DNA of 41,046 nucleotides from a virus. Lineage: Duplodnaviria; Caudoviricetes. Made by a program: the position numbers and the translations under genes. A model generated the notes under the pieces. It was not told the origin of the DNA, made no database searches, and worked only from the letters and a program-made list of their open reading frames with translations. The stretch spans positions 1 to 41,046 of IMG/VR virus record IMGVR_UViG_3300037044_000222. The stretch is one strand, 5' to 3'. Positions 7,630 through 36,513 of this stretch are shown here, piece by piece; positions within the stretch are counted from its first letter, which is position 1, and every line of letters starts with the position of its first letter.

Positions 7630-8652
7630 TCATGAAGCGGAAAAGGCCGCGGCCACCCAAATGACCAAACCATCCACCGGCTGATCCTGGCTGAGCGTCA
7701 ACCGCCCCCCGGTCCAGGATGCTTCGGGGACACCATCCTCCAGGTTGCTCCACGTTTCATACACCCCGCTGATCCCAAAGGCATTCCCCGTCCAGAACGG
7801 GAAGGTTTGGGGCAGGTTCCACGCCTCGCCGTTGGCGGTGAACGTCTTCACCATTCCGATGAAGGCAAAGTCGGCCAGCCATGTGAATGAGTCCACCTCC
7901 CCCGCGGAACCCGCGGCGTGTCCGAACCAGACACCCATGCATGCATAGCTGAGCGAAGACAATGGATGCCCGGCATCTGCGAAGCTCAGAGCAAAAGCCT
8001 GATCGGCGAAGTTGTTCCAGGATTCGCACGCACCCCACGGATCAATGAAGCAGATGCTCTCCCATTCGGGCGGATCGGGTCGGACCACCAGTTCGGCCAG
8101 GGTAACGGTCACGCCCGCGTGCCAGTCGGTGCGGTGGCTCAAGTCCGAGAACGTGAGCCGGCCGAAGACCAGCGGCCAGGCCCAGGTGCCCTCGCCCCAG
8201 GTCCCGATCAGGGCCGCCTTGAGCGTGAGCGTGTCGCCGTTGACCGCCTCGGCCTGGGCCAACTCGAAGGCCTCGACCGGGTCGGCCTCGAGGGACCGCA
8301 GCAAGAGGAAGTCATCCGCCTCGAACCACGGCCACGCCTCCTCCTCGATGACCAATTCGGTGCCGGCGGCCGACACCACGCGCCGGCCTCGGCCCCAGTA
8401 GGGCGCACAGGCCAGGCCCGACTTGGCCGCCGCCCGGAGCCGGGCCAGCAGCGGCGTCTGCTCGGTGACATCGAAGGGCAGGACCCGCCAGGACAAGGAC
8501 CCGCGCGGCTTCGGGCGCAGGGCCCGCCGTTCCTCGGCGCCGGTCAGGACCCGCTGCACATCGGTCCGCCAGGCGCGCGACCATTGGACCGGCCGCGACC
8601 AGTCGGGCAGGTGCGGCAGCAGGACGTGGGCGTTGACCTCGGTGACAGGCAT
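7630..8652 (-). CDS. Distal tail protein (DUF2460-like) with an aromatic-rich C-terminal extension
   Basis: PDWSRPV...WRTDV..TGAEERRALRPKPR motif; starts just after the tape measure stop. Confidence 0.75.
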   Translation of the reverse strand: MPVTEVNAHVLLPHLPDWSRPVQWSRAWRTDVQRVLTGAEERRALRPKPRGSLSWRVLPFDVTEQTPLLARLRAAAKSGLACAPYWGRGRRVVSAAGTELVIEEEAWPWFEADDFLLLRSLEADPVEAFELAQAEAVNGDTLTLKAALIGTWGEGTWAWPLVFGRLTFSDLSHRTDWHAGVTVTLAELVVRPDPPEWESICFIDPWGACESWNNFADQAFALSFADAGHPLSSLSYACMGVWFGHAAGSAGEVDSFTWLADFAFIGMVKTFTANGEAWNLPQTFPFWTGNAFGISGVYETWSNLEDGVPEASWTGGRLTLSQDQPVDGLVIWVAAAFSAS

Positions 8653-8653
8653 C

Positions 8654-11380
8654 TCAGGTGGGGATGCCGACCTGCATCCGGCGTTTGCGGATGATCTCGA
8701 CGAGCCGGGCCTCGCCCTCGGCCGACTCGAGGAACTGCCGGGCCTGATTGCGCGAGTCCACGAGCACCAGGCTGAGGTTGAGCTTAGACGGGTCAGTGGT
8801 CCCCCCGCCGGTGTCTCCACGGGCTCCGGCCGGTGACGCCCCACCGAACGCGCCTCCGCTGGCCTGGGGACCCAACCGGGCGCCCAGGGCCTGCAAAGCC
8901 GGTTCGCCGTAATGGCGGAACGCCTCGGGATCGACCCGGAGCCCGCCGCTGGCCAACCGGCCGAAGATCGTGCCTTCCTGCCAAGCCAACCGGTTCTGCT
9001 CGGTGAGCACTTGGGCCAGCCCCGGAGGAGTCCCGATTTGCCCTTGGGAGCCTTCCGGCGCCGCGCCGGGGGTGTTGGGGTTCCCCAGGCTTGCGTGGTG
9101 CGTGGGAGAGCCTTGGGTGCGTGGGATGGGGCGTGTTTGGGCCCCGGTGAGGTCCTGGATGCCGGCGAAAGCAGCCGCGATGCCCAGGTTGACCACGTCC
9201 TCCCCCCGCCGGATGCGCTCGAAGAACTCCGTCCCGTACTGGCTGACCCGTTCGGCAGGGATGACGTACTCGCCGGGGGACAACCGGGCCAGGACCCGAT
9301 CTTCCTTCGGCCCGCCAGGACCTCGGACCATGCCGCCCTGGGCGAACGCGCCGGACATGGCGGCGATGGCGGCGAATAGGGCCGCCGTGCCCACCAGGGC
9401 GGCGACGCCGTAGCTGGAAATGGAGGACATGAGGGCGCCGGGCGCCTTGGCGGCGGCATCGGCTGCCCCTTCCTTTTGCGAGAACAGGATGTTCTTCACC
9501 GCCATCATGGCCCGACCCACGAGCCACTCGGCGAACATTCGGGAGATCGCGTTGACTACCGCCGTCCCGAGGGTCTGGGCCACGTTCCGCAGGGCATCCG
9601 CCCAGTCCATCGTGCCCCGGATCAGCCCGGACATGCTCTCGGCGATCCCGTCAATGGCCGAACCGACGACGGACGTGAAGCTCCGCGCGATCTGCTGGGC
9701 CAGGGTCCCGATTCGCCGGGCCATGTCATCGGCCGCGACGAACAACTGGTCCCGGATCGAAGCCGGGTCACCCTGGCTCTGCTGCTTGGCGAGGTCCGTC
9801 CCGAGGCTGGCCTGATCGCGCTCGGCCGTGCGGATCTGCTGGATGAGCAACTGGCGGGTCTGCTCATCCTGTTCGAGTTCGAGCCGCTGCTTGAGCTTGC
9901 GGATGTGCTCCTCGATCAGGGCCAACTCCTCCCGCTTCCAGGCGAGGGTCTGCCGGTAACGCTCGGTGTCGGAGGCGAACCGGTCGGCGTCGAGCCGGGC
10001 AATGGACGTGTGGAGATCGAGGCGCCGGTCGGCGAGGGTCTGGGCCTGCGTTTCGAGTTCGAGCTTGGTCCGTTGGCGGACGATGGTCGTCGAGTCGAAC
10101 TCGCCCGGCTCGAAGGCCCCGGCCTCGAGGGCGGCGGCGGGCGGCTTGGCGTGGTCCATCTCCCACTCGAAACGGATCATGGCCGTGCCGGTGGCATCGA
10201 GGGCGTCGGACCACTTGCGCATCGCCCGGTGGTGGGTCTCGAAAGCGTACTCCCCGACCTCGACCACGGTGTCCATGACCCGCGCCACCCCGCCGGCGAT
10301 GTCGGCGGTGGCCTTGGCCGCCGAAACGGTCATGTCCTTGAGGGCGGTCTTGGCGAGCCTGGCGGCCACTCCGAACTGCCGGGCGAACACCGCAGCCATG
10401 ATGGTCCCGAGGGCCTCGAACTGCCGGAGCATCTCCCCGACGCTCGCGGTTACCACCTTCCCCAGGTCGTAAATCGCCCCGGCGAACCGCCCCAGGGCGA
10501 ACAGGGGTACGGAGAGGTAATCGGTCAGGATGTCGAACGCGGTGGCCAGGACCTTGACCGCTTCGGCCGCGCCGACCAGGAACCAGGCCAGCTCCTTCAA
10601 CACCACGGAAAGCGCCCGCCCAACGACACCGAGGGCCTGGCTCGACTTGGCCAGGGCCACGATCCGGTCGGTCAACGCCACCAACGCCGGCAACAACTCG
10701 GCCGCGATCTGCTGGAACATGCCCCGCACCGCGTACTGCAACCGTTGCAGGTTGTCATTGAAGTCCCCGGCCGCCTGGGCCGCCTGCGGGGTCACCTCGA
10801 CGCCGAAGACCCTGGCTTCCTCCTGCAACCCGCGAATGGCTTCGGCTCCCTGGTTCAGGAACGGGATCAGCTCAGAACCCGATTTCCCGAGCAACTGCAT
10901 CGCCAGCGCCGTTTTCTGAGCGCCGTTGGGCATTTCGGCGAACCGGTTGGCGATTTCCAGCATGACATCGCTCGAGGACCGCAGCGACCCGTCCTCATTC
11001 CGAACCGACACCCCGAGCGCCTGATAGGATTCAGTGTAGGCTTGGGCTCCCTGGGCCGCCTCAAAGATGCTTCGGTTGAGGAACCGCAAGCCCACCTCCA
11101 ACTGTTCGACATTGGCCTTACTGATTGCCGCCGCGTAACCGAGCGTCGAAAGCTCCTGCACCCCCACGCCGGCCTTCTGGGCGGCAGCGCCCGCAGCATC
11201 CAGCGTGTTGACCGCCTCCTGAAGCCCACGGGTCAACTCGCGCACCGACAACCCTGCCCCGACCAGGGCGCCGAGGCCTCCGACCCATGACTTCACACTC
11301 GAAAGCACGCCACCGAGCGCCTTCTGGACGGCCGAGGCGCCCTTGGTCGTCAGCTCGATCTCGATGCGCGGTTTGGCCAT
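8654..11380 (-). CDS. Tape measure protein
   Basis: 908 aa, Ala-rich helical; KTALAMQLLGKSGSELIPFLNQG; C-terminal GG.VRGPG...D.VLARLS.GEYV. Confidence 0.95.
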   Translation of the reverse strand: MAKPRIEIELTTKGASAVQKALGGVLSSVKSWVGGLGALVGAGLSVRELTRGLQEAVNTLDAAGAAAQKAGVGVQELSTLGYAAAISKANVEQLEVGLRFLNRSIFEAAQGAQAYTESYQALGVSVRNEDGSLRSSSDVMLEIANRFAEMPNGAQKTALAMQLLGKSGSELIPFLNQGAEAIRGLQEEARVFGVEVTPQAAQAAGDFNDNLQRLQYAVRGMFQQIAAELLPALVALTDRIVALAKSSQALGVVGRALSVVLKELAWFLVGAAEAVKVLATAFDILTDYLSVPLFALGRFAGAIYDLGKVVTASVGEMLRQFEALGTIMAAVFARQFGVAARLAKTALKDMTVSAAKATADIAGGVARVMDTVVEVGEYAFETHHRAMRKWSDALDATGTAMIRFEWEMDHAKPPAAALEAGAFEPGEFDSTTIVRQRTKLELETQAQTLADRRLDLHTSIARLDADRFASDTERYRQTLAWKREELALIEEHIRKLKQRLELEQDEQTRQLLIQQIRTAERDQASLGTDLAKQQSQGDPASIRDQLFVAADDMARRIGTLAQQIARSFTSVVGSAIDGIAESMSGLIRGTMDWADALRNVAQTLGTAVVNAISRMFAEWLVGRAMMAVKNILFSQKEGAADAAAKAPGALMSSISSYGVAALVGTAALFAAIAAMSGAFAQGGMVRGPGGPKEDRVLARLSPGEYVIPAERVSQYGTEFFERIRRGEDVVNLGIAAAFAGIQDLTGAQTRPIPRTQGSPTHHASLGNPNTPGAAPEGSQGQIGTPPGLAQVLTEQNRLAWQEGTIFGRLASGGLRVDPEAFRHYGEPALQALGARLGPQASGGAFGGASPAGARGDTGGGTTDPSKLNLSLVLVDSRNQARQFLESAEGEARLVEIIRKRRMQVGIPT

Positions 11381-25885: not shown

Positions 25886-26905
25886 TCAAGCGGCCACCGG
25901 CGGTTGCTCCGGGGTCGAAGGTTGGGGGGGAACCGGCGGCGGAACCGCCGGGGTGAAGAAGGGGGCCGGCCACTTCCGATCGAAGGTGTGGGCGGCATTG
26001 GTGACTTCTTCCTTGATGTTCGCGAACTGCTCGTGCGCCAGGCCGAACAGCCCGTAAGCCGGTTCACTGGAAGTCCCGCTCACCGACCACCGCAGCAGGT
26101 GCCACATCCGCTCGAGGGCCTCGACCGCCGTCTTGGTCCGCAGCCGGGGGGCGTCCGGCTTCCAGGGGCAGACCCGCTTGATCGCCTTGCACTTGCTCAC
26201 CAGCCCCAGCGCGGTGGCCACGTGGTGGAGGATCTTGTACTCGTTCAAGGTGGCCGCGAACGCGCGGAACTCGGCGCAGGGGGCCGCGTTGAGCAGCTTC
26301 TGGAAGTTGACCATCCCCCGCCCCGTGGACCGCACCAGTTCCACCACCCGTTCGCTCGGCGCTTTGGTCGCCTTGGCCAGGTTCTCGAAGGCCGGCTTGC
26401 TCAGCGGCAGGCAATAGTGGTTGCGGTGCCGGTCGGTGCCTGTCTGGGCGAAGATCGGCCAGGCGTTGTCGTGCGCGTTGCTCGCCAGGCGATAGGCGAA
26501 CTCGAGCAGTCCCTTGGGGTCGTTCGCGAGCCAGCCCAGGCCGACGGTGACGTGCAGCCCGCAGCTCGGGTTGACCCGGCCGCCGATGGCCACGATGAAC
26601 CGGACCATCTCGATCAGCGCCCGAATGCCCGCGTCGCCCTTGAGCCGGGGGCTGACGAACTCGCACGGCTGGTAGCCGCGAGGGACCGTGATGCTGGCGT
26701 CCCGGTCGGCCCGCCAGAGCTCCCCGTTGAAGGTGGGGGCATGGAGGACTTCGCCCGCCGGGGTGCGGCCCACGGTCACCCGGCTGCCCCGGTGGTAGCT
26801 CCCCACTTGAAGGCCACTGCTGTGCGGAATGACGGTCTCGATCTCGACCCCGAACTCGAGGAGGGCCGCCGTCTCATCTGGTGCTGCTAGCTTCCTTGGT
26901 TGCAT
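25886..26905 (-). CDS. Putative amidoligase (COOH-NH2 ligase type 2, Amidoligase_2)
   Basis: FGVEIET, DASI, EFVSPRL, NPSCGLHV, EFR motifs. Confidence 0.88.
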   Translation of the reverse strand: MQPRKLAAPDETAALLEFGVEIETVIPHSSGLQVGSYHRGSRVTVGRTPAGEVLHAPTFNGELWRADRDASITVPRGYQPCEFVSPRLKGDAGIRALIEMVRFIVAIGGRVNPSCGLHVTVGLGWLANDPKGLLEFAYRLASNAHDNAWPIFAQTGTDRHRNHYCLPLSKPAFENLAKATKAPSERVVELVRSTGRGMVNFQKLLNAAPCAEFRAFAATLNEYKILHHVATALGLVSKCKAIKRVCPWKPDAPRLRTKTAVEALERMWHLLRWSVSGTSSEPAYGLFGLAHEQFANIKEEVTNAAHTFDRKWPAPFFTPAVPPPVPPQPSTPEQPPVAA

Positions 26906-28306: not shown

Positions 28307-29065
28307 TCAAAAGGTCCAGGGGAGGGCAATCGAGCGGGCACTGGGGTTGCGTTCCTGCTTGGTCGCCGTCCGGCTCCGCCGCTTGGGCACCACCGCCGCC
28401 CCGAAGTAGCGCTTGAGCAAGGCCGTCGCCCCTTCCTCGCCCCCGCCGGCCCGGAACTCCGCCATCCCGCCCCGCCCGGTGTACGTGTCCTTGAACCCGA
28501 ACGCGAAGCGGCCGTCCAACCAGGCATAGCGGTGGTGGTAGGCGTTGAGCAGACAGACCCAGTAGTCGTCCATCGGCAGCGTGCAGTCCTTCGGGAACCA
28601 GAGCTGGTGCCCCGCGAGGAACCCAATCGCCCCGGCCGGCGAGTACCCCCCGAACCGGAAGGGCCGGTGTTCCCGGTACGTCAACGGGTTGGCATGGCTG
28701 GCGAACCCGAAGAAGTGCGCCCCCAGTTGGCGGGCCGTGGCGGCGGCGTTCTGGATCACCTCGGCCGCCACCTCCGGCGGGGCAATCGCCGGCACCGGCG
28801 CCCCCCGGTAGCGCCAGACCCGGTAGAGCCCGATGCTGTCGTCATCGAGCTGGAAGTTGGAGGGGTACCGCTCGAGGACCCACTGCCGTTTGGCCGGCAG
28901 GCCCACCACGCTGTCGGGGTGGGTGAGGATCTGCTCGGGCGGATGGTGCCGGGCGTACGCGGCGGCCTGCGACTCGGGCACCAGCACCCGGGCGCCGGCG
29001 ACATGCCGGTGGGTCGTCACCCGGCCGGCCCGCTTGTGCGAGAGGATCAGGATCGGGATTTCCAT
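28307..29065 (-). CDS. GT-A fold glycosyltransferase of the TAGT/GREB1-like type
   Basis: ILSHKRA..VTT, V.ESQ..AY, RQWVL, QLDDD, DDYW.CL, GG.A..R motifs. Confidence 0.8.
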   Translation of the reverse strand: MEIPILILSHKRAGRVTTHRHVAGARVLVPESQAAAYARHHPPEQILTHPDSVVGLPAKRQWVLERYPSNFQLDDDSIGLYRVWRYRGAPVPAIAPPEVAAEVIQNAAATARQLGAHFFGFASHANPLTYREHRPFRFGGYSPAGAIGFLAGHQLWFPKDCTLPMDDYWVCLLNAYHHRYAWLDGRFAFGFKDTYTGRGGMAEFRAGGGEEGATALLKRYFGAAVVPKRRSRTATKQERNPSARSIALPWTF

Positions 29066-29841
29066 AGCGCGTGGAATCGGCGGAAGTCCAGGACCTGGGT
29101 CACACCCACCGTCCCCCGGCGGTCGAGCCCCTTCTGGAGGTCGAGCATCGTGCTCAGGGCTGCCCATTCCTGGCCGGTCCGGGTGAAGATCAGGACCCCG
29201 TTGTAAGCCTCGTCGATGGTCGGCACCAGTTCGTACACCCCGGCCGCCGGTTTGCCTTCCTCCTCCCCGGCCTCCAGGTCCCGCAGGATCGCCGCCATGC
29301 GTTCGGACACTCCGTCGGCTTCGAGCTGTTGGACCAGGGCGGCAAGCTGCTCCTCCCCGACCACCCCCAGCTCGGCCAGCTTGTTGTCCGCCAGCAGGTG
29401 AGCCAACTCGTCGGCCGGCGAGCCAAAGTCCTGGAACTCGACGGGCACCTGCTCGGCCCCGAGCGATTCCAGGGCGAGCAACTGGCCGTGGCCCACCACC
29501 AGGAACCCGCTGGCCTGCGAGATCACCAGCGGCCGGCGGATGCCCTGGAACCGCAGGATCTCGGCGAACAGGGCCACCTGCGGTTCGGGGTGCTTCTTGG
29601 GGTTCTGGGGATGCGGACGCACCTGGGCCGGCGGCATCAGCGTGTCGTAGCGGCAGCGGATCGGGATCGGACCGGCCGCTGCGACAATCGCGGTGACCGG
29701 GTGCGACACCCCCGCCGGAGTGTCGCACTTGGGCGCAGGCATCGGGGCGAGCGGCTGGACCTCGAGTTCAGGGCCGCCGGCATTGGCGGGAGCGGGCGTT
29801 CTGCCCCCCGCGGGGCGTGTGGGCTTCTTCGAGTTTTTCAT
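29047..29841 (-). CDS. ParB-N (ParB/Srx) domain protein
   Basis: PHPQNPKKH, G.RRPLVI, VVGHG, LLADNKLAE motifs. Confidence 0.88.
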   Translation of the reverse strand: MKNSKKPTRPAGGRTPAPANAGGPELEVQPLAPMPAPKCDTPAGVSHPVTAIVAAAGPIPIRCRYDTLMPPAQVRPHPQNPKKHPEPQVALFAEILRFQGIRRPLVISQASGFLVVGHGQLLALESLGAEQVPVEFQDFGSPADELAHLLADNKLAELGVVGEEQLAALVQQLEADGVSERMAAILRDLEAGEEEGKPAAGVYELVPTIDEAYNGVLIFTRTGQEWAALSTMLDLQKGLDRRGTVGVTQVLDFRRFHALWKSRS

Positions 29842-33594: not shown

Positions 33595-33687
33595 TCAGAG
33601 CTCTCCCGGCCACAGCAGGGCCATCACCCCTCCCGCCACCACACCCAGCAGCAGGAGGACAAAGACCGCGAGGATCACGCTGCCCAT
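33595..33687 (-). CDS. 30-aa single-pass membrane peptide
   Basis: MGSVILAVFVLLLLGVVAGGVMALLWPGEL with GGAGG SD; fills the gap between neighbours. Confidence 0.65.
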   Translation of the reverse strand: MGSVILAVFVLLLLGVVAGGVMALLWPGEL

Positions 33688-36119
33688 GCCGGTTCCTCCC
33701 TTTCGACCCGCGTCTTGTGTGTCCCGCCGAAGTTCCGATCAAGGAACTCGCCCGCCTCGGCAAACGTGGCCGCGTACGGATCGGGGTGGCCCAGCTTTAC
33801 CAGCCACTTCACCTGCTTGGGCGTCGCCAGTCCCAGATCCCGCCGCGCGAAGAGGATCTCCAGGAGCTTGTTCGCATGCCCCTTGCAGGTCACCCGCTCC
33901 AGGCCAAAGCCCATCCGCTCCAACGCCGCCGCCTGCTTCGGGCTCACGGGCTCACGCTCCCAGGCCATGGTCGGTTCGTAGTCCAGCAACAGCGGGCTGC
34001 CCAGGCCGACCGCGAACTCGATGGCGTCCACCACCCGCATGTTGCGTTGGGCCTGCGCCGCCAGTTGCTCGGCCAGCTTCCGACGCCGCTCTTCGGTGGC
34101 CACCGCGTCCACTTCGAGCAGGTCCATCTGTTCACCCAGGGCGAGGACCTCGGTCATCGCCTGGTCCTGCTGCGGGGTCTGCGCAATCAGCCGGGCCGGC
34201 CGGATCAGGTCCATCGAGTCCGAGAGGAAGAGCGGATCGAGCACCAGCAGGTTCTCCTTCCCGGGGTGGATCCGCGTCCCTCGGCCGATCATCTGCGAGT
34301 AGAGGACCAGCGACTTGGTCGGCCGCAGCACCATGACGCAGTCCAGCGAGGGTTCGTCCCAGCCGGTGGTCAGCAGCGAGGCGTTGCAGATGATGTCCGC
34401 CCCCCGCCGCCGGAAGGTCTCCAACTCGCTCCGGTCCTCCCCATCCACATGCACCGCCCGTAGCCCGATCTCGCGGCAGGCCGCGACGAACCGCTTGCTG
34501 GTCTCGATCAGGGGCAGGAACACCACCGTCCGCCGGCCGCGCGCGTGCTCGGCCAGGATCTCGGCGCACTCGGCCAGGTGCGGCTCGATGGCATCACCCA
34601 GGTCCTCCTCTCGAAAGTCACCGCTGCGAGTCTTGACCGCGGACAAGTCCACTTGCACCGGCACCGACTGGATGACGATGCGGGCCAGGTAACCCTCCTT
34701 GATGAGTTCAACCAGGCTGATCTCGCACGGGATCGTCTGGTAAAAGGTCGCGAGCTGCTGTTTGTCCGAGCGGAACGGGGTGGCGGTGATCCCGATGACC
34801 TGGGCGGAGGCGAAGTGACCGAGCACGGCCTGCGCCTGGGTGCCGAGCGTATTCCGATGGCAGTTGTGGACAACAAACCCGTTGGCAACGTAGGTGTGCA
34901 GTCCTTCAACGGTCAGATTGAAGACCTCGACTTCACCGCTTCCAGCACCTGACTGGCAATGCTCAGCGGTGCCGCCAGCACCTCTCGGTTGGTAAACCTC
35001 AACAAGTACCACCCGCGCGACTCGAGGAACCCGACTTTCTTGGTATCCTGGGCGCGTCGGCTCCTGGCCTTGTGACTGGCGCCGTCCACCTCCACCGCCG
35101 TGCGTGTCACCGGATCGGCGAGGTCCAGTTTGTAGCAAGTCGGATAGCTGCAGCCGCGGGGCATCCTCGTCGGAACTGCATACTCCGTGCGCAAGCCCGT
35201 CAGCTCTGCCAAGAGCTTCTGGGCCCGCGTCGGACCGGTGCCATTCCCCCCACGAATCAGTGGTCGGTGCCCGATTTCCCGCAACCGGAGGCCAACCTTC
35301 TCCGCCACGCTGGGAGAGAACATCGGGTTGTGAACCTTCCGGTGCGCCGACATGAGCGCATTCTGGCAGTCGCGGGAACAGCACCACCGGGCGGTCGGAT
35401 TCCGCCTGTGCTGGGCTCGCTGGTTGGCGGTGGGAGCGAAGGGATTCCGACAATGATCGCACGTGACGCTCATCATAGACATAGATTTCATCTCCAGGTT
35501 CGATCAGGCCCGCCGGGGTCCAGCGGCACCGCGAAGGGCCGGTCTCCTGGACCACGGCAAAGGGATGGTTGATCGTTGCGGTCACAGTGAGTCCGCACGC
35601 CGTTCGCACCTTGACGAGCCGATCAACCGACGTGCGCTGGCGGATCACTCTCCGGATGCGCCGCCGCTCCATCGACCCGGTCGTCTCATTCCACGAGTCA
35701 ACGAGGTCTCCCGCACGGAGTGTCTCGATGGGCCTGCCATCCACACGCGTGCCCGCCGGAAAACACTCATCGACGATGACCAGGCTGAAGTAGTCCCGCG
35801 GCCATTTACCCAGACGTCGGGCCAGGCTCTGGGTCGTGGCCACCACCAGGCGGTCCCCTGGCTGGGCGTGTTCCTCCGCCATCTCGACCTGCGGGATCAC
35901 GCCGGCCCAGATCCCCAGCTTGTCGGCGGCCTGTTTGACCAACTCCTGCGCGTCGGCCAGGAACAGCACCGGACCAAAGGGCAGACACCGCCGGCAGATC
36001 TCGCCGGAAACTACGGTTTTCCCAGATCCGGTGGGGGCCACGCCCAGCACCCGGTCGAACTCGACCAAGGCGCCGAGCATGGCGTCCACGAAGCGGGGCT
36101 GGTAGGGACGGAGCTTCAC
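33675..36119 (-). CDS. SF2 DExH-box helicase precursor containing an intein
   Basis: LRPYQ, APTGSGKT, DE|CH after splicing, TATP, LTTGWDEP, QMIGRGTR motifs. Confidence 0.95.
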   Translation of the reverse strand: MKLRPYQPRFVDAMLGALVEFDRVLGVAPTGSGKTVVSGEICRRCLPFGPVLFLADAQELVKQAADKLGIWAGVIPQVEMAEEHAQPGDRLVVATTQSLARRLGKWPRDYFSLVIVDECFPAGTRVDGRPIETLRAGDLVDSWNETTGSMERRRIRRVIRQRTSVDRLVKVRTACGLTVTATINHPFAVVQETGPSRCRWTPAGLIEPGDEIYVYDERHVRSLSESLRSHRQPASPAQAESDRPVVLFPRLPECAHVGAPEGSQPDVLSQRGGEGWPPVAGNRAPTTDSWGEWHRSDAGPEALGRADGLAHGVCSSDEDAPRLQLSDLLQTGPRRSGDTHGGGGGRRQSQGQEPTRPGYQESRVPRVARVVLVEVYQPRGAGGTAEHCQSGAGSGEVEVFNLTVEGLHTYVANGFVVHNCHRNTLGTQAQAVLGHFASAQVIGITATPFRSDKQQLATFYQTIPCEISLVELIKEGYLARIVIQSVPVQVDLSAVKTRSGDFREEDLGDAIEPHLAECAEILAEHARGRRTVVFLPLIETSKRFVAACREIGLRAVHVDGEDRSELETFRRRGADIICNASLLTTGWDEPSLDCVMVLRPTKSLVLYSQMIGRGTRIHPGKENLLVLDPLFLSDSMDLIRPARLIAQTPQQDQAMTEVLALGEQMDLLEVDAVATEERRRKLAEQLAAQAQRNMRVVDAIEFAVGLGSPLLLDYEPTMAWEREPVSPKQAAALERMGFGLERVTCKGHANKLLEILFARRDLGLATPKQVKWLVKLGHPDPYAATFAEAGEFLDRNFGGTHKTRVEREEPAWAA
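34863..35765 (-). mobile_element. Intein (301 aa) inserted in helicase motif II
   Basis: Block A CFPAGTRV, block B TINHPF, block F/G VFNLTVEGLHTYVANGFVVHN followed by Cys+1. Confidence 0.95.
34913..35491 (-). CDS. Zn-finger + Vsr/DUF559-type endonuclease nested in the intein in the +1 frame
   Basis: CDHC...CCSRDC, NPM motif, YKLDLA...AVEVDGASH...D..K..FLESRGW.LLRFTN.EV; GGAG 9 nt before the ATG at 35482. Confidence 0.88.
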   Translation of the reverse strand: MKSMSMMSVTCDHCRNPFAPTANQRAQHRRNPTARWCCSRDCQNALMSAHRKVHNPMFSPSVAEKVGLRLREIGHRPLIRGGNGTGPTRAQKLLAELTGLRTEYAVPTRMPRGCSYPTCYKLDLADPVTRTAVEVDGASHKARSRRAQDTKKVGFLESRGWYLLRFTNREVLAAPLSIASQVLEAVKSRSSI

Positions 36120-36120
36120 C

Positions 36121-36513
36121 TCAGTTCGCGGAGGGCTTGCCCTTCCGCAACTTGGCCACCGCCGCCTTCATGACGCCCAGCGGCGCCGTGGCCGAGCCGT
36201 GCGGTGTCTTGATCGTGACCTTGGTCTGGTCGGTCTCCCCCTCCAAGGGCAGGAGCGGCTGGTCCGGGTCCGGGATCGACGCCACGGCACTGAGCCGATG
36301 ACGGATGCCGAAGGTCAGGTCGTGCTCCGCGTTGTTCTTGTCCAGGTCCAGCGTGATCGCGAAGGTCAGGCGCAGCTTGGGCTTCTGCTCCTGGACCTGC
36401 GCCTCCTCGAGGCACGCCGCCCACGCGGCCAGGATGTCTTCCTCACCCTCCCGGACGAGGGCCTTCAGATTGTCCGCCGCCTGGTCGGCGATGGCTTGGA
36501 GTTTTGGACTCAT
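36121..36513 (-). CDS. Hypothetical protein (130 aa)
   Basis: Tight spacing to both neighbours, typical codon bias. Confidence 0.75.
   Translation of the reverse strand: MSPKLQAIADQAADNLKALVREGEEDILAAWAACLEEAQVQEQKPKLRLTFAITLDLDKNNAEHDLTFGIRHRLSAVASIPDPDQPLLPLEGETDQTKVTIKTPHGSATAPLGVMKAAVAKLRKGKPSAN

What the first reader, a model, noticed from the sequence alone, without database searches (positions are those of the whole stretch)
34863..35765. Intein with a complete endonuclease gene nested in a different reading frame (dual-coding intein)
Seen: the helicase frame runs unbroken through a 301-aa intein (CFPAGT...HN/C) sitting in the DE|CH motif. The roughly 190 codons between the splicing blocks look like low-complexity shadow sequence in that frame. 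The same DNA in the +1 frame (35491/35482-34913) encodes a CxxC..CSxxC Zn-finger, a NUMOD-like segment and a Vsr/DUF559 nuclease (D..EVDG.SH..D..GW..RF.N). It has its own AT-rich ATG cluster with GGAG right at the end of the N-terminal splicing region, and its stop lies inside block F. Known: intein homing endonucleases are normally in-frame domains, and free-standing Vsr-like nucleases occur between split-intein halves. Inference: this is a separately translated homing nuclease riding inside a contiguous intein, which uncouples nuclease expression from helicase synthesis. It may be an intermediate towards split inteins or fractured genes. Caveat: high G/C at third positions of the nested gene itself makes stops rare in the intein frame.
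Basis: partly seen in the sequence, partly recalled or inferred. Interest (0 to 1): 0.9.

Follow-up and report, generated by a model that had tools for sequence, protein, structure and literature searches.

The report
Intein hiding a shifted-frame homing nuclease
A phage helicase gene carries an insert with the hallmarks of a self-splicing intein, and the same DNA, read one base out of step, encodes a complete nuclease gene that likely spreads the insert between phages; this double coding is real and recurs in over two hundred related sequences, but the general layout has already been described.

Summary
Observation confirmed. A provirus SF2 helicase (36119-33675, minus strand) has a 301-aa intein at DE|CH, and a 189/192-aa +1-frame ORF inside it is a DUF559/Vsr-like nuclease folding like homing endonuclease I-Bth0305I. 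It is not an error: contigs of three runs show no indels, and 218 of 219 related loci with both intein blocks have the nuclease at +1 in an open intein frame. GC content does not explain the open frame (0 stops against about 986 expected). Selection acts on the nuclease frame (dN/dS 0.18, against 1.52 in the intein frame). Empty, mini and full alleles coexist in Vibrio phages, and a close empty allele of this helicase exists. Separate translation and homing are inferred, not shown. The layout is in print (Gosselin 2025, Phillips 2026) for other nucleases, strands and hosts; I found no paper on this sense-strand Vsr-like helicase family. This scan noted the same layout at least seven times on other DNA. 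It looks stable rather than transitional, though the same nuclease also occurs free-standing, in a split intein, and in frame in UvrD-type inteins.

The parts
35766..36119 (-). Helicase N-extein (SF2/ResIII-like; Walker A GSGKT; ends in motif II ...VIVDE)
   Evidence: PF04851 E 5e-19
34863..35765 (-). Contiguous 301-aa intein (C1, T64-x-x-H67, H300, N301), in frame with the helicase
35466..35765 (-). N-terminal splicing region (intein residues 1-100), Hint fold
   Evidence: pLDDT 80-98; top hits are solved inteins, best E 3e-6
35492..35495 (-). GGAG Shine-Dalgarno-like motif, written by the intein's Gly-Asp codons (GGA GAT), 9 nt upstream of ATG 35482
   Evidence: sequence
34913..35491 (-). 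Nested +1-frame gene, 192 aa (likely start 35482, 189 aa): Cys4 zinc-finger-like N-terminus, NPM/GGNG segment, Vsr-like/DUF559 (EDxHD-type) nuclease domain; stop inside intein block F
34863..35024 (-). C-terminal splicing region (intein residues about 248-301, blocks F and G), overlapped by the 3' end of the nuclease gene
   Evidence: sequence
33675..34862 (-). Helicase C-extein, starting with the +1 Cys (CHRN...), Helicase_C domain

Best explanation
This is a dual-coding intein in motif II of a phage SF2 helicase: the helicase frame stays open through a disordered filler between the two splicing halves, the same DNA in the +1 frame encodes a selected Vsr-like nuclease, and that nuclease is likely translated from its own start and likely cuts empty helicase alleles so that the intein is copied in (homing). 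Steps: (1) Shown: both frames are open and conserved, with purifying selection on the nuclease frame and strict stop avoidance in the intein frame. (2) Predicted: the precursor folds a Hint domain with the filler looped out and splices at C1/N301/C+1, restoring a DECH helicase. (3) Inferred: ribosomes initiate internally on the helicase mRNA at GGAG-9 nt-ATG 35482 and make a protein of about 21 kDa. (4) Inferred from its fold and the tested relative I-Bth0305I: it cleaves intein-less alleles near the DExH codons, and repair from the intein-bearing genome copies the intein plus some flanking bases, which would bring the Cys+1 into DEAH alleles. Likely origin: a free-standing endonuclease gene entered a mini-intein in the +1 phase without breaking the frame.
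For: No indels over the stretch in contigs of X1 and X2 (whole stretch; possible source samples) or X3 (pieces covering the whole intein, depth 2.9-7.7). 218 of 219 loci with both intein blocks, of 248 examined, have the +1 offset and no stop in the intein frame; 7 of 7 cultured-phage records fetched agree. 0 stops against 986 expected from synonymous shuffling in 146 representatives, while the third frame has 1769 against 1629 expected; T in third position before AA/AG/GA is 0 of 5260 against 29% elsewhere. The Tyr of the invariant YK motif is TAC in 135 of 135 nested copies (23 of 23 at low GC3, where other Tyr codons are TAT 101:14) but TAT in 5 of 12 non-nested copies. dN/dS is 0.18 in the nuclease frame and 1.52 in the intein frame over the same DNA in 31 pairs. 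The catalytic motif pattern is intact in 137 of 148 representatives. An in-frame ATG precedes the first conserved motif in 116 of 133; SD energy <=-4 kcal/mol in 59% against 24% of control ATGs and 55% of helicase starts (p 4e-10). The nuclease model (pLDDT 92) matches 3HRL Z 13.0 (rmsd 1.4, 86 aligned), I-Bth0305I 3R3P Z 11.2 (2.5, 90) and Vsr 1CW0 Z 9.7 (2.2, 96). Mobility: run X4 holds a helicase about 92-95% identical with the site empty (916 skipped, 13 replaced, net 903 bases; one contig); Vibrio phages hold empty, mini and full alleles at this site; some pairs have near-identical inteins in diverged exteins (L067/L238 pS 0.016 and 0.039 against 0.373).
Against: Translation of the +1 ORF, splicing and cleavage were not measured. 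The SD signal is modest: 41% of representatives lack a good one and 17 of 133 have no ATG in the tested span. The closest empty alleles of this helicase read DEAH, not DECH (X4; 5 of the 8 closest viral helicases), so the target must tolerate this or these alleles are immune. A filter for strongly discordant intein/extein pairs among 116 DE|CH loci found none, and identity correlations between parts were uniformly low (0.25-0.30), so ongoing homing rests on a few pairs and on patchiness. The window's intein has no close relative (best 48-49% identity), so its own recent movement is not shown. Foldseek E-values for the nuclease were weak (best 4.7e-3).
Confidence: 0.8

Rival explanations
1. The nuclease is made by a programmed +1 ribosomal frameshift at the end of the N-terminal splicing region, giving a helicase-N/IntN/nuclease fusion, perhaps released by N-terminal cleavage at C1, and not by its own initiation.
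For: The +1 frame opens close to the end of IntN in most loci. 41% of representatives lack a good SD. One database protein (P0165) is exactly such an in-frame helicase-IntN-nuclease product.
Against: 116 of 133 have an ATG just upstream of the first conserved motif, with SD strength like true helicase starts. Free-standing relatives have the same domain content as stand-alone ORFs. I did not search for slippery sites.
Confidence: 0.1
2. The layout is real, but this copy is inherited vertically and no longer mobile; the nuclease is kept for another role (for example cutting competing phages) or is on its way to decay.
For: No close intein relative of the window's copy and no strongly discordant pair; the nearest empty alleles are DEAH.
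Against: A helicase about 92-95% identical lacks the intein, which needs a recent gain or a precise loss together with the Cys-to-Ala change. All catalytic residues are intact here, and the family is under purifying selection.
Confidence: 0.08
3. An ordinary intein with an in-frame nuclease, shifted by two compensating sequencing or assembly indels, or a chance open frame caused by high GC.
For: 67% GC makes stops rare (3.7 expected in this copy). In-frame versions of this nuclease do exist in inteins of UvrD-like helicases.
Against: No indels in three runs; 218 of 219 loci share the phase; AT-rich copies (GC3 below 0.35) expect 11 stops each and have none; 0 of 105 SF2 helicase inteins carry the nuclease in frame while 102 carry the shadow signature.
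Confidence: 0.01

Closest known systems
Non-canonical actinobacteriophage inteins (Gosselin, Arsenault, Gogarten; bioRxiv 10.1101/2025.01.02.630785)
   Same: Contiguous phage inteins whose endonuclease is a separate overlapping ORF; includes a Vsr-like/EDxHD-like type matching 3R3P; the in-frame filler is unstructured; they propose invasion of an intein by a free-standing endonuclease, and later shift into frame by indels.
   Different: Their Vsr-like type is antisense and their same-strand type is endonuclease VII-like in frame 3; hosts are DNA polymerase, minor capsid, terminase and thymidylate synthase, not helicase; they call the layouts rare. Here it is sense strand, +1, Vsr-like, in helicase motif II, and common.
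Cyanobacterial dnaX intein with out-of-frame endonuclease (Phillips, DeSimone, Gogarten; bioRxiv 10.64898/2026.09.14.751524; earlier Gorbalenya 1998 as cited there)
   Same: Overlapping '+2 ORF' with putative Shine-Dalgarno motifs, a disordered intein-frame filler, frame-dependent dN/dS, and coexisting empty, mini and full alleles.
   Different: LAGLIDADG nuclease in a chromosomal dnaX gene; here a Vsr-like nuclease in phage helicases.
[quoted passage not shown] 2009, PMC2677866)
   Same: Same nuclease superfamily, same strand, between the intein halves, with the 3' end overlapping the C-terminal intein part.
   Different: There the host gene is broken into two ORFs; here one continuous frame. 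Locus L139 is the fractured form of this family.
I-Bth0305I / EDxHD homing endonucleases (Taylor et al. 2011, PMC3239194; PDB 3R3P)
   Same: C-terminal Vsr-like catalytic fold (Z 11.2), E-x-D...H...D residues, N-terminal putative DNA-binding region.
   Different: I-Bth0305I sits in a group I intron and has NUMOD2 repeats; here the N-terminus is a Cys4 motif plus an NPM/GGNG segment with no NUMOD hit. Cleavage and dimerisation are untested.
ShiLan out-of-frame HNH insert in phage methylases (Arsenault et al. 2025, PMC11855218)
   Same: An out-of-frame nuclease whose DNA stays open in the host frame.
   Different: No splicing domain, HNH type, and no detectable ribosome-binding site.

Membership tests
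Contiguous (cis-splicing) intein | In-frame insert with C1, block B TxxH, terminal His-Asn and a +1 Cys/Ser/Thr | tested here: met
   C1, T64/H67, H300, N301, +1 Cys; C1, H67, H300, N301 invariant in 59 aligned inteins. The residue list is textbook knowledge, recalled.
Contiguous (cis-splicing) intein | Hint fold made of the N- and C-terminal parts | tested here: met
   PF14890 above its cut-off; the model matches solved inteins, 35 matches at E<=0.001
Contiguous (cis-splicing) intein | Protein splicing activity | not testable with these tools
   Needs a splicing assay
Canonical full intein | Homing endonuclease domain in frame with the splicing domain | tested here: not met
   Nuclease is in the +1 frame; the in-frame filler is low-confidence coil
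Non-canonical intein with out-of-frame endonuclease (Gosselin 2025; Phillips 2026) | Intact endonuclease ORF in another frame or strand inside an open intein frame | tested here: met
Non-canonical intein with out-of-frame endonuclease (Gosselin 2025; Phillips 2026) | Purifying selection in the nuclease frame, not in the overlapping intein frame | tested here: met
   dN/dS 0.18 against 1.52 in 31 pairs of related loci; the window itself had no close partner
Non-canonical intein with out-of-frame endonuclease (Gosselin 2025; Phillips 2026) | Patchy, horizontally spread distribution | tested here: met
   Empty, mini and full alleles; empty close relative; a few discordant pairs; none in the stricter filter
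Antisense VSR-like intein type of Gosselin 2025 | Nuclease on the antisense strand | tested here: not met
   Same strand in all 219 loci with both blocks; no antisense N-block hit in the other 29
Fractured gene / split intein (Dassa 2009) | Host gene broken into two ORFs around the nuclease | tested here: not met
   One 814-aa ORF here; met only by L139
EDxHD (I-Bth0305I) homing endonucleases | C-terminal Vsr-like catalytic fold with E, D, H, D residues | tested here: met
   (3R3P E 0.0025)
EDxHD (I-Bth0305I) homing endonucleases | N-terminal NUMOD-like repeats | tested here: inconclusive
   No NUMOD Pfam hit in 33 members at E<=0.05; weak zinc-ribbon hits instead. Short motifs can be missed.
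EDxHD (I-Bth0305I) homing endonucleases | Cleaves the uninterrupted host allele near the insertion site; homodimer | not testable with these tools
   Needs cleavage and sizing assays

The most novel reading that the evidence does not exclude
One nuclease family is caught in every state of the proposed route by which inteins gain endonucleases, all around the helicase DExH site: free-standing gene directly upstream of an intein-less helicase, +1-nested inside a contiguous intein (dominant), between split intein halves (L139), fused to the N-terminal half (P0165), and fully in frame in inteins of UvrD-like helicases (P0159-P0170). If a rooted tree shows free-standing to nested to in-frame or split, this is a natural series showing how canonical in-frame inteins and split inteins arise, and one of the commonest hidden overlapping genes in phage replication modules.
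Probability: 0.4. Interest if true: 0.68.

Novelty: new variant of a known kind. Interest (0 to 1): 0.45.

Why it matters
It shows a stable overlapping gene of about 190 codons that annotation misses: none of the 7 GenBank phage records I fetched annotates the nested gene, including Vibrio phage CP-T1, Pseudomonas phage MR14 and Corynebacterium phage phi673. Many helicase inteins that look as if their endonuclease had decayed are probably active homing elements (102 of 105 carry the shadow signature). With over a hundred diverse copies, cultured carriers, and free-standing, split and in-frame relatives, the family makes the old question of how inteins acquire endonucleases directly testable. 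The surprise is limited because the layout and the hypothesis are already in print for other nucleases.

Tried and rejected
Single-sequence scans of viral contigs with the intein and the nuclease found no relatives; alignment queries were needed. No RNA holder was listed, which says nothing on expression. No sigma-70 promoter or terminator was found in 34800-36300. The RNA around the nuclease start folds no better than shuffles (z -1.15), so there is no support for a Dassa-type hairpin. NUMOD was not detected. Pairwise identity correlations between nuclease, IntN and extein were uninformative, and the discordant-pair filters returned nothing. The nuclease-core tree (FastTree, 160 rows, midpoint root only) cannot give the order of events; representatives without a usable core were left out (135 of 148 kept). 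The N-terminal 84 residues of the nuclease were barely tested by the fold searches and were not folded alone. Rejected: indel artefact and GC-chance explanations. No earlier notes exist for this genome.

Full report
Setting. The window is a whole 41,046-base virus record classed as a provirus, with integrase, Sak4-like annealing protein, primase, terminase, portal, head and tail genes (23 ORFs scanned). The best-holding runs are groundwater metagenomes. The helicase lies in the replication module, upstream of the primase.

Observation. The helicase ORF 36119-33675 (-) is 814 aa without a stop. The 301-aa segment 35765-34863 lies between DE and CHRN, starts CFPAGT, ends HN, and passes the Pfam intein cut-off. 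Its model has confident N- and C-terminal parts that match solved inteins, and a low-confidence coil in between. The +1 frame holds a 192-aa ORF, 35491-34913, with DUF559 at E 3e-9. Its model (pLDDT 92) matches 3HRL, the I-Bth0305I catalytic domain and Vsr at Z 13.0, 11.2 and 9.7; Foldseek ranked 3R3P first but only at E 4.7e-3, and a profile search gave 3HRL 1.5e-10 and 3R3P 0.0025. GGAG at 35495-35492 suits ATG 35482 (9-nt spacing), and the public gene call P0003 starts there too. The NUMOD label is not supported by Pfam.

Not an artefact. Contigs of X1 and X2 span 33600-36200 with no difference or gap (they may be the source), and X3 covers the intein in pieces with none. The nuclease hit 40 GenBank phage records; I fetched 7 records (6, 1), and all have it at +1 inside an open helicase intein, unannotated. 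Alignment searches kept the best 80 loci each from viral, genome and metagenome collections (of 341, 99 and 254 confirmed). Of 248 loci in all, 219 had both intein blocks; 218 of these had the +1 offset and no stop in the intein frame, and 29 lacked one or both blocks. The 218 fall into 166 clusters at 90% and 148 at 70% nuclease identity. Caveats: the intein profiles were built from this family, and loci were chosen by similarity to the nuclease. Of the 29, those checked with one block (L064, L138, L142, L150, L215) and L134 also had an open frame; 11 with no block and away from contig ends had 1 to 32 stops in that frame. From the other side, 105 of the 120 listed helicase-like proteins had an extractable intein; 102 carry the shadow signature and none carries the nuclease in frame.

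Both frames are maintained. In 146 of the 148 representatives, synonymous shuffling of the nuclease gene predicts 986 stops in the intein frame; none is seen, while the third frame has 1769 against 1629 expected. These representatives were drawn from the open loci, so the unbiased figure is 218 of 219. The test still shows that GC does not explain it: copies with GC3 below 0.35 expect 11 stops each. For the window alone p is about 0.015. The Tyr of the invariant YK motif is TAC in 135 of 135 nested copies, because TAT would create TAA in the intein frame; 5 of 12 non-nested copies use TAT. In 31 pairs of related loci (a few are near-duplicates), dN/dS is 0.18 in the nuclease frame, 1.52 in the intein frame over the same DNA, 0.21 for IntN and 0.19 for the C-extein. 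The value above 1 is a by-product of synonymous change in the other frame, as Phillips et al. also argue. So the intein frame is constrained only to stay open.

Expression. An ATG precedes the first conserved motif in 116 of 133 representatives, at a median of intein codon 86, and SD strength there matches true helicase starts and exceeds controls (59%, 55% and 24% at <=-4 kcal/mol). In the window and several relatives the SD is written by the intein's own Gly-Asp or Asp-Glu-Val codons. This favours internal initiation over frameshifting but does not prove it. No promoter, terminator or notable hairpin was found, so translation from the helicase mRNA is the simplest reading.

Mobility. Run X4 holds a helicase about 92-95% identical whose site is empty: 916 bases skipped and 13 put in, net 903, exactly the intein, reading D-E-A-H (one contig, depth 5.6). 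Five of the 8 closest viral helicases (43-56% identity) are also empty with DEAH; for the other three the site was not read. Among six Vibrio phage relatives of L007 that I fetched (one search listed 116 records), three are empty (two DECH, one DEAH) and three have a mini-intein of about 150 aa at the same site. Some pairs have near-identical inteins in diverged exteins, but a stricter filter on 116 DE|CH loci found none. Homing is therefore well suggested for the family and plausible for this copy; the DEAH alleles imply either co-conversion of the Cys codon or immunity.

Other states of the same nuclease. L139 is a fractured gene: IntN, nuclease and IntC are three ORFs in the same phase, with 23 stops in between. 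Thirteen loci have the nuclease free-standing; in 9 of them, by my reading of the motifs, the next gene is an intein-less helicase-like ORF (DExH read in six; some of the nine are close kin). A search among longer proteins found 17 hits; 11 are UvrD-like helicases with the nuclease in frame in an intein at DE|CQD, with no Cys4 motif in the sequences printed, and one (P0165) is an SF2 helicase ending in an IntN-nuclease fusion. Eight in-frame copies form a clade (support 0.81); free-standing copies are scattered among nested ones. The tree is not properly rooted, and the DNA behind the in-frame proteins was not seen. Nested copies also occur in UvrD-like helicases (L138, L119) and in a few other sites.

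What is known. Gosselin et al. (bioRxiv 10.1101/2025.01.02.630785; abstract, passages, sections 8 and 15 read) report antisense Vsr-like, antisense LAGLIDADG and frame-3 endonuclease VII-like inteins in four host proteins, none a helicase, and propose the free-standing origin and later shift into frame. Phillips et al. (bioRxiv 10.64898/2026.09.14.751524; first quarter and passages) report the dnaX intein's out-of-frame LAGLIDADG with frame-dependent selection. Dassa et al. 2009 (PMC2677866; passages and section 16) describe fractured genes. Taylor et al. 2011 (PMC3239194; passages) tested I-Bth0305I. Arsenault et al. 2025 (PMC11855218; abstract and section 4.3) describe an intein-less analogue. 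PMC9403480 (passages) only mentions a DUF559 gene. Gorbalenya 1998 was seen only as cited. Six searches showed no paper on a sense-strand +1 Vsr-like nuclease in helicase inteins; the library lacks most subscription journals, and the two preprints' supplements, which could list such cases, were not seen. This scan has noted the same layout in at least seven other genomes; those notes are not independent support.

Verdict. A real, selected dual-coding intein with a likely separately translated homing nuclease (confidence 0.8). It is a new variant of a known kind. Interest 0.45, rising to about 0.68 if the free-standing, nested, split and in-frame forms prove to be an ordered series.

Noticed in passing
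L139:2238-4517: Fractured helicase gene in a Lacinutrix MAG contig: helicase-N plus IntN, the nuclease, and IntC plus helicase-C as three overlapping ORFs, with the nuclease in the same +1 phase as the nested family.
   Followed up: partly
L043, L087, L088, L109, L140, L157, L176, L209, L228: Free-standing copies of the nuclease lie directly upstream of, and mostly overlap the start of, intein-less helicase-like genes; this suggests a free-standing homing gene that targets the neighbouring helicase.
   Followed up: partly
proteins P0159-P0170, P0037: The same nuclease in frame within inteins, mostly at the DE|CQD site of UvrD-like helicases and without the Cys4 N-terminus; P0165 is an SF2 helicase ending in an IntN-nuclease fusion.
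   Followed up: partly
L259:801-3932, L261:801-3302, L258:801-2882: Vibrio phage helicases with a mini-intein at DE|CH; L259 and L261 carry a second intein in Walker A (GK|T), long in L259 and short in L261.
   Followed up: partly
L025, L051, L124, L126, L132, L143, L156, L166, L167: The same +1-nested intein sits at shifted sites (after DExH, or one residue further) and in non-DExH contexts (...DELSF|C, ...DICW|C), which suggests target-site shifts.
   Followed up: no
window 34850-35767 against run X4: The close empty allele differs over 13 bases at the site and has Ala where the intein-bearing gene has the +1 Cys, a possible trace of co-conversion.
   Followed up: partly
window 7633-9459 and 8657-11380 (-): Two long same-strand ORFs overlap by about 800 bases (tail assembly hit and tape measure hit); probably an over-long start call in GC-rich DNA, not checked.
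   Followed up: no
window 25889-26905, 28310-29728, 29050-29841 (-): Accessory genes between the replication and packaging modules: amidoligase-like, glucosyltransferase-like and ParB-like or methyltransferase-associated ORFs.
   Followed up: no
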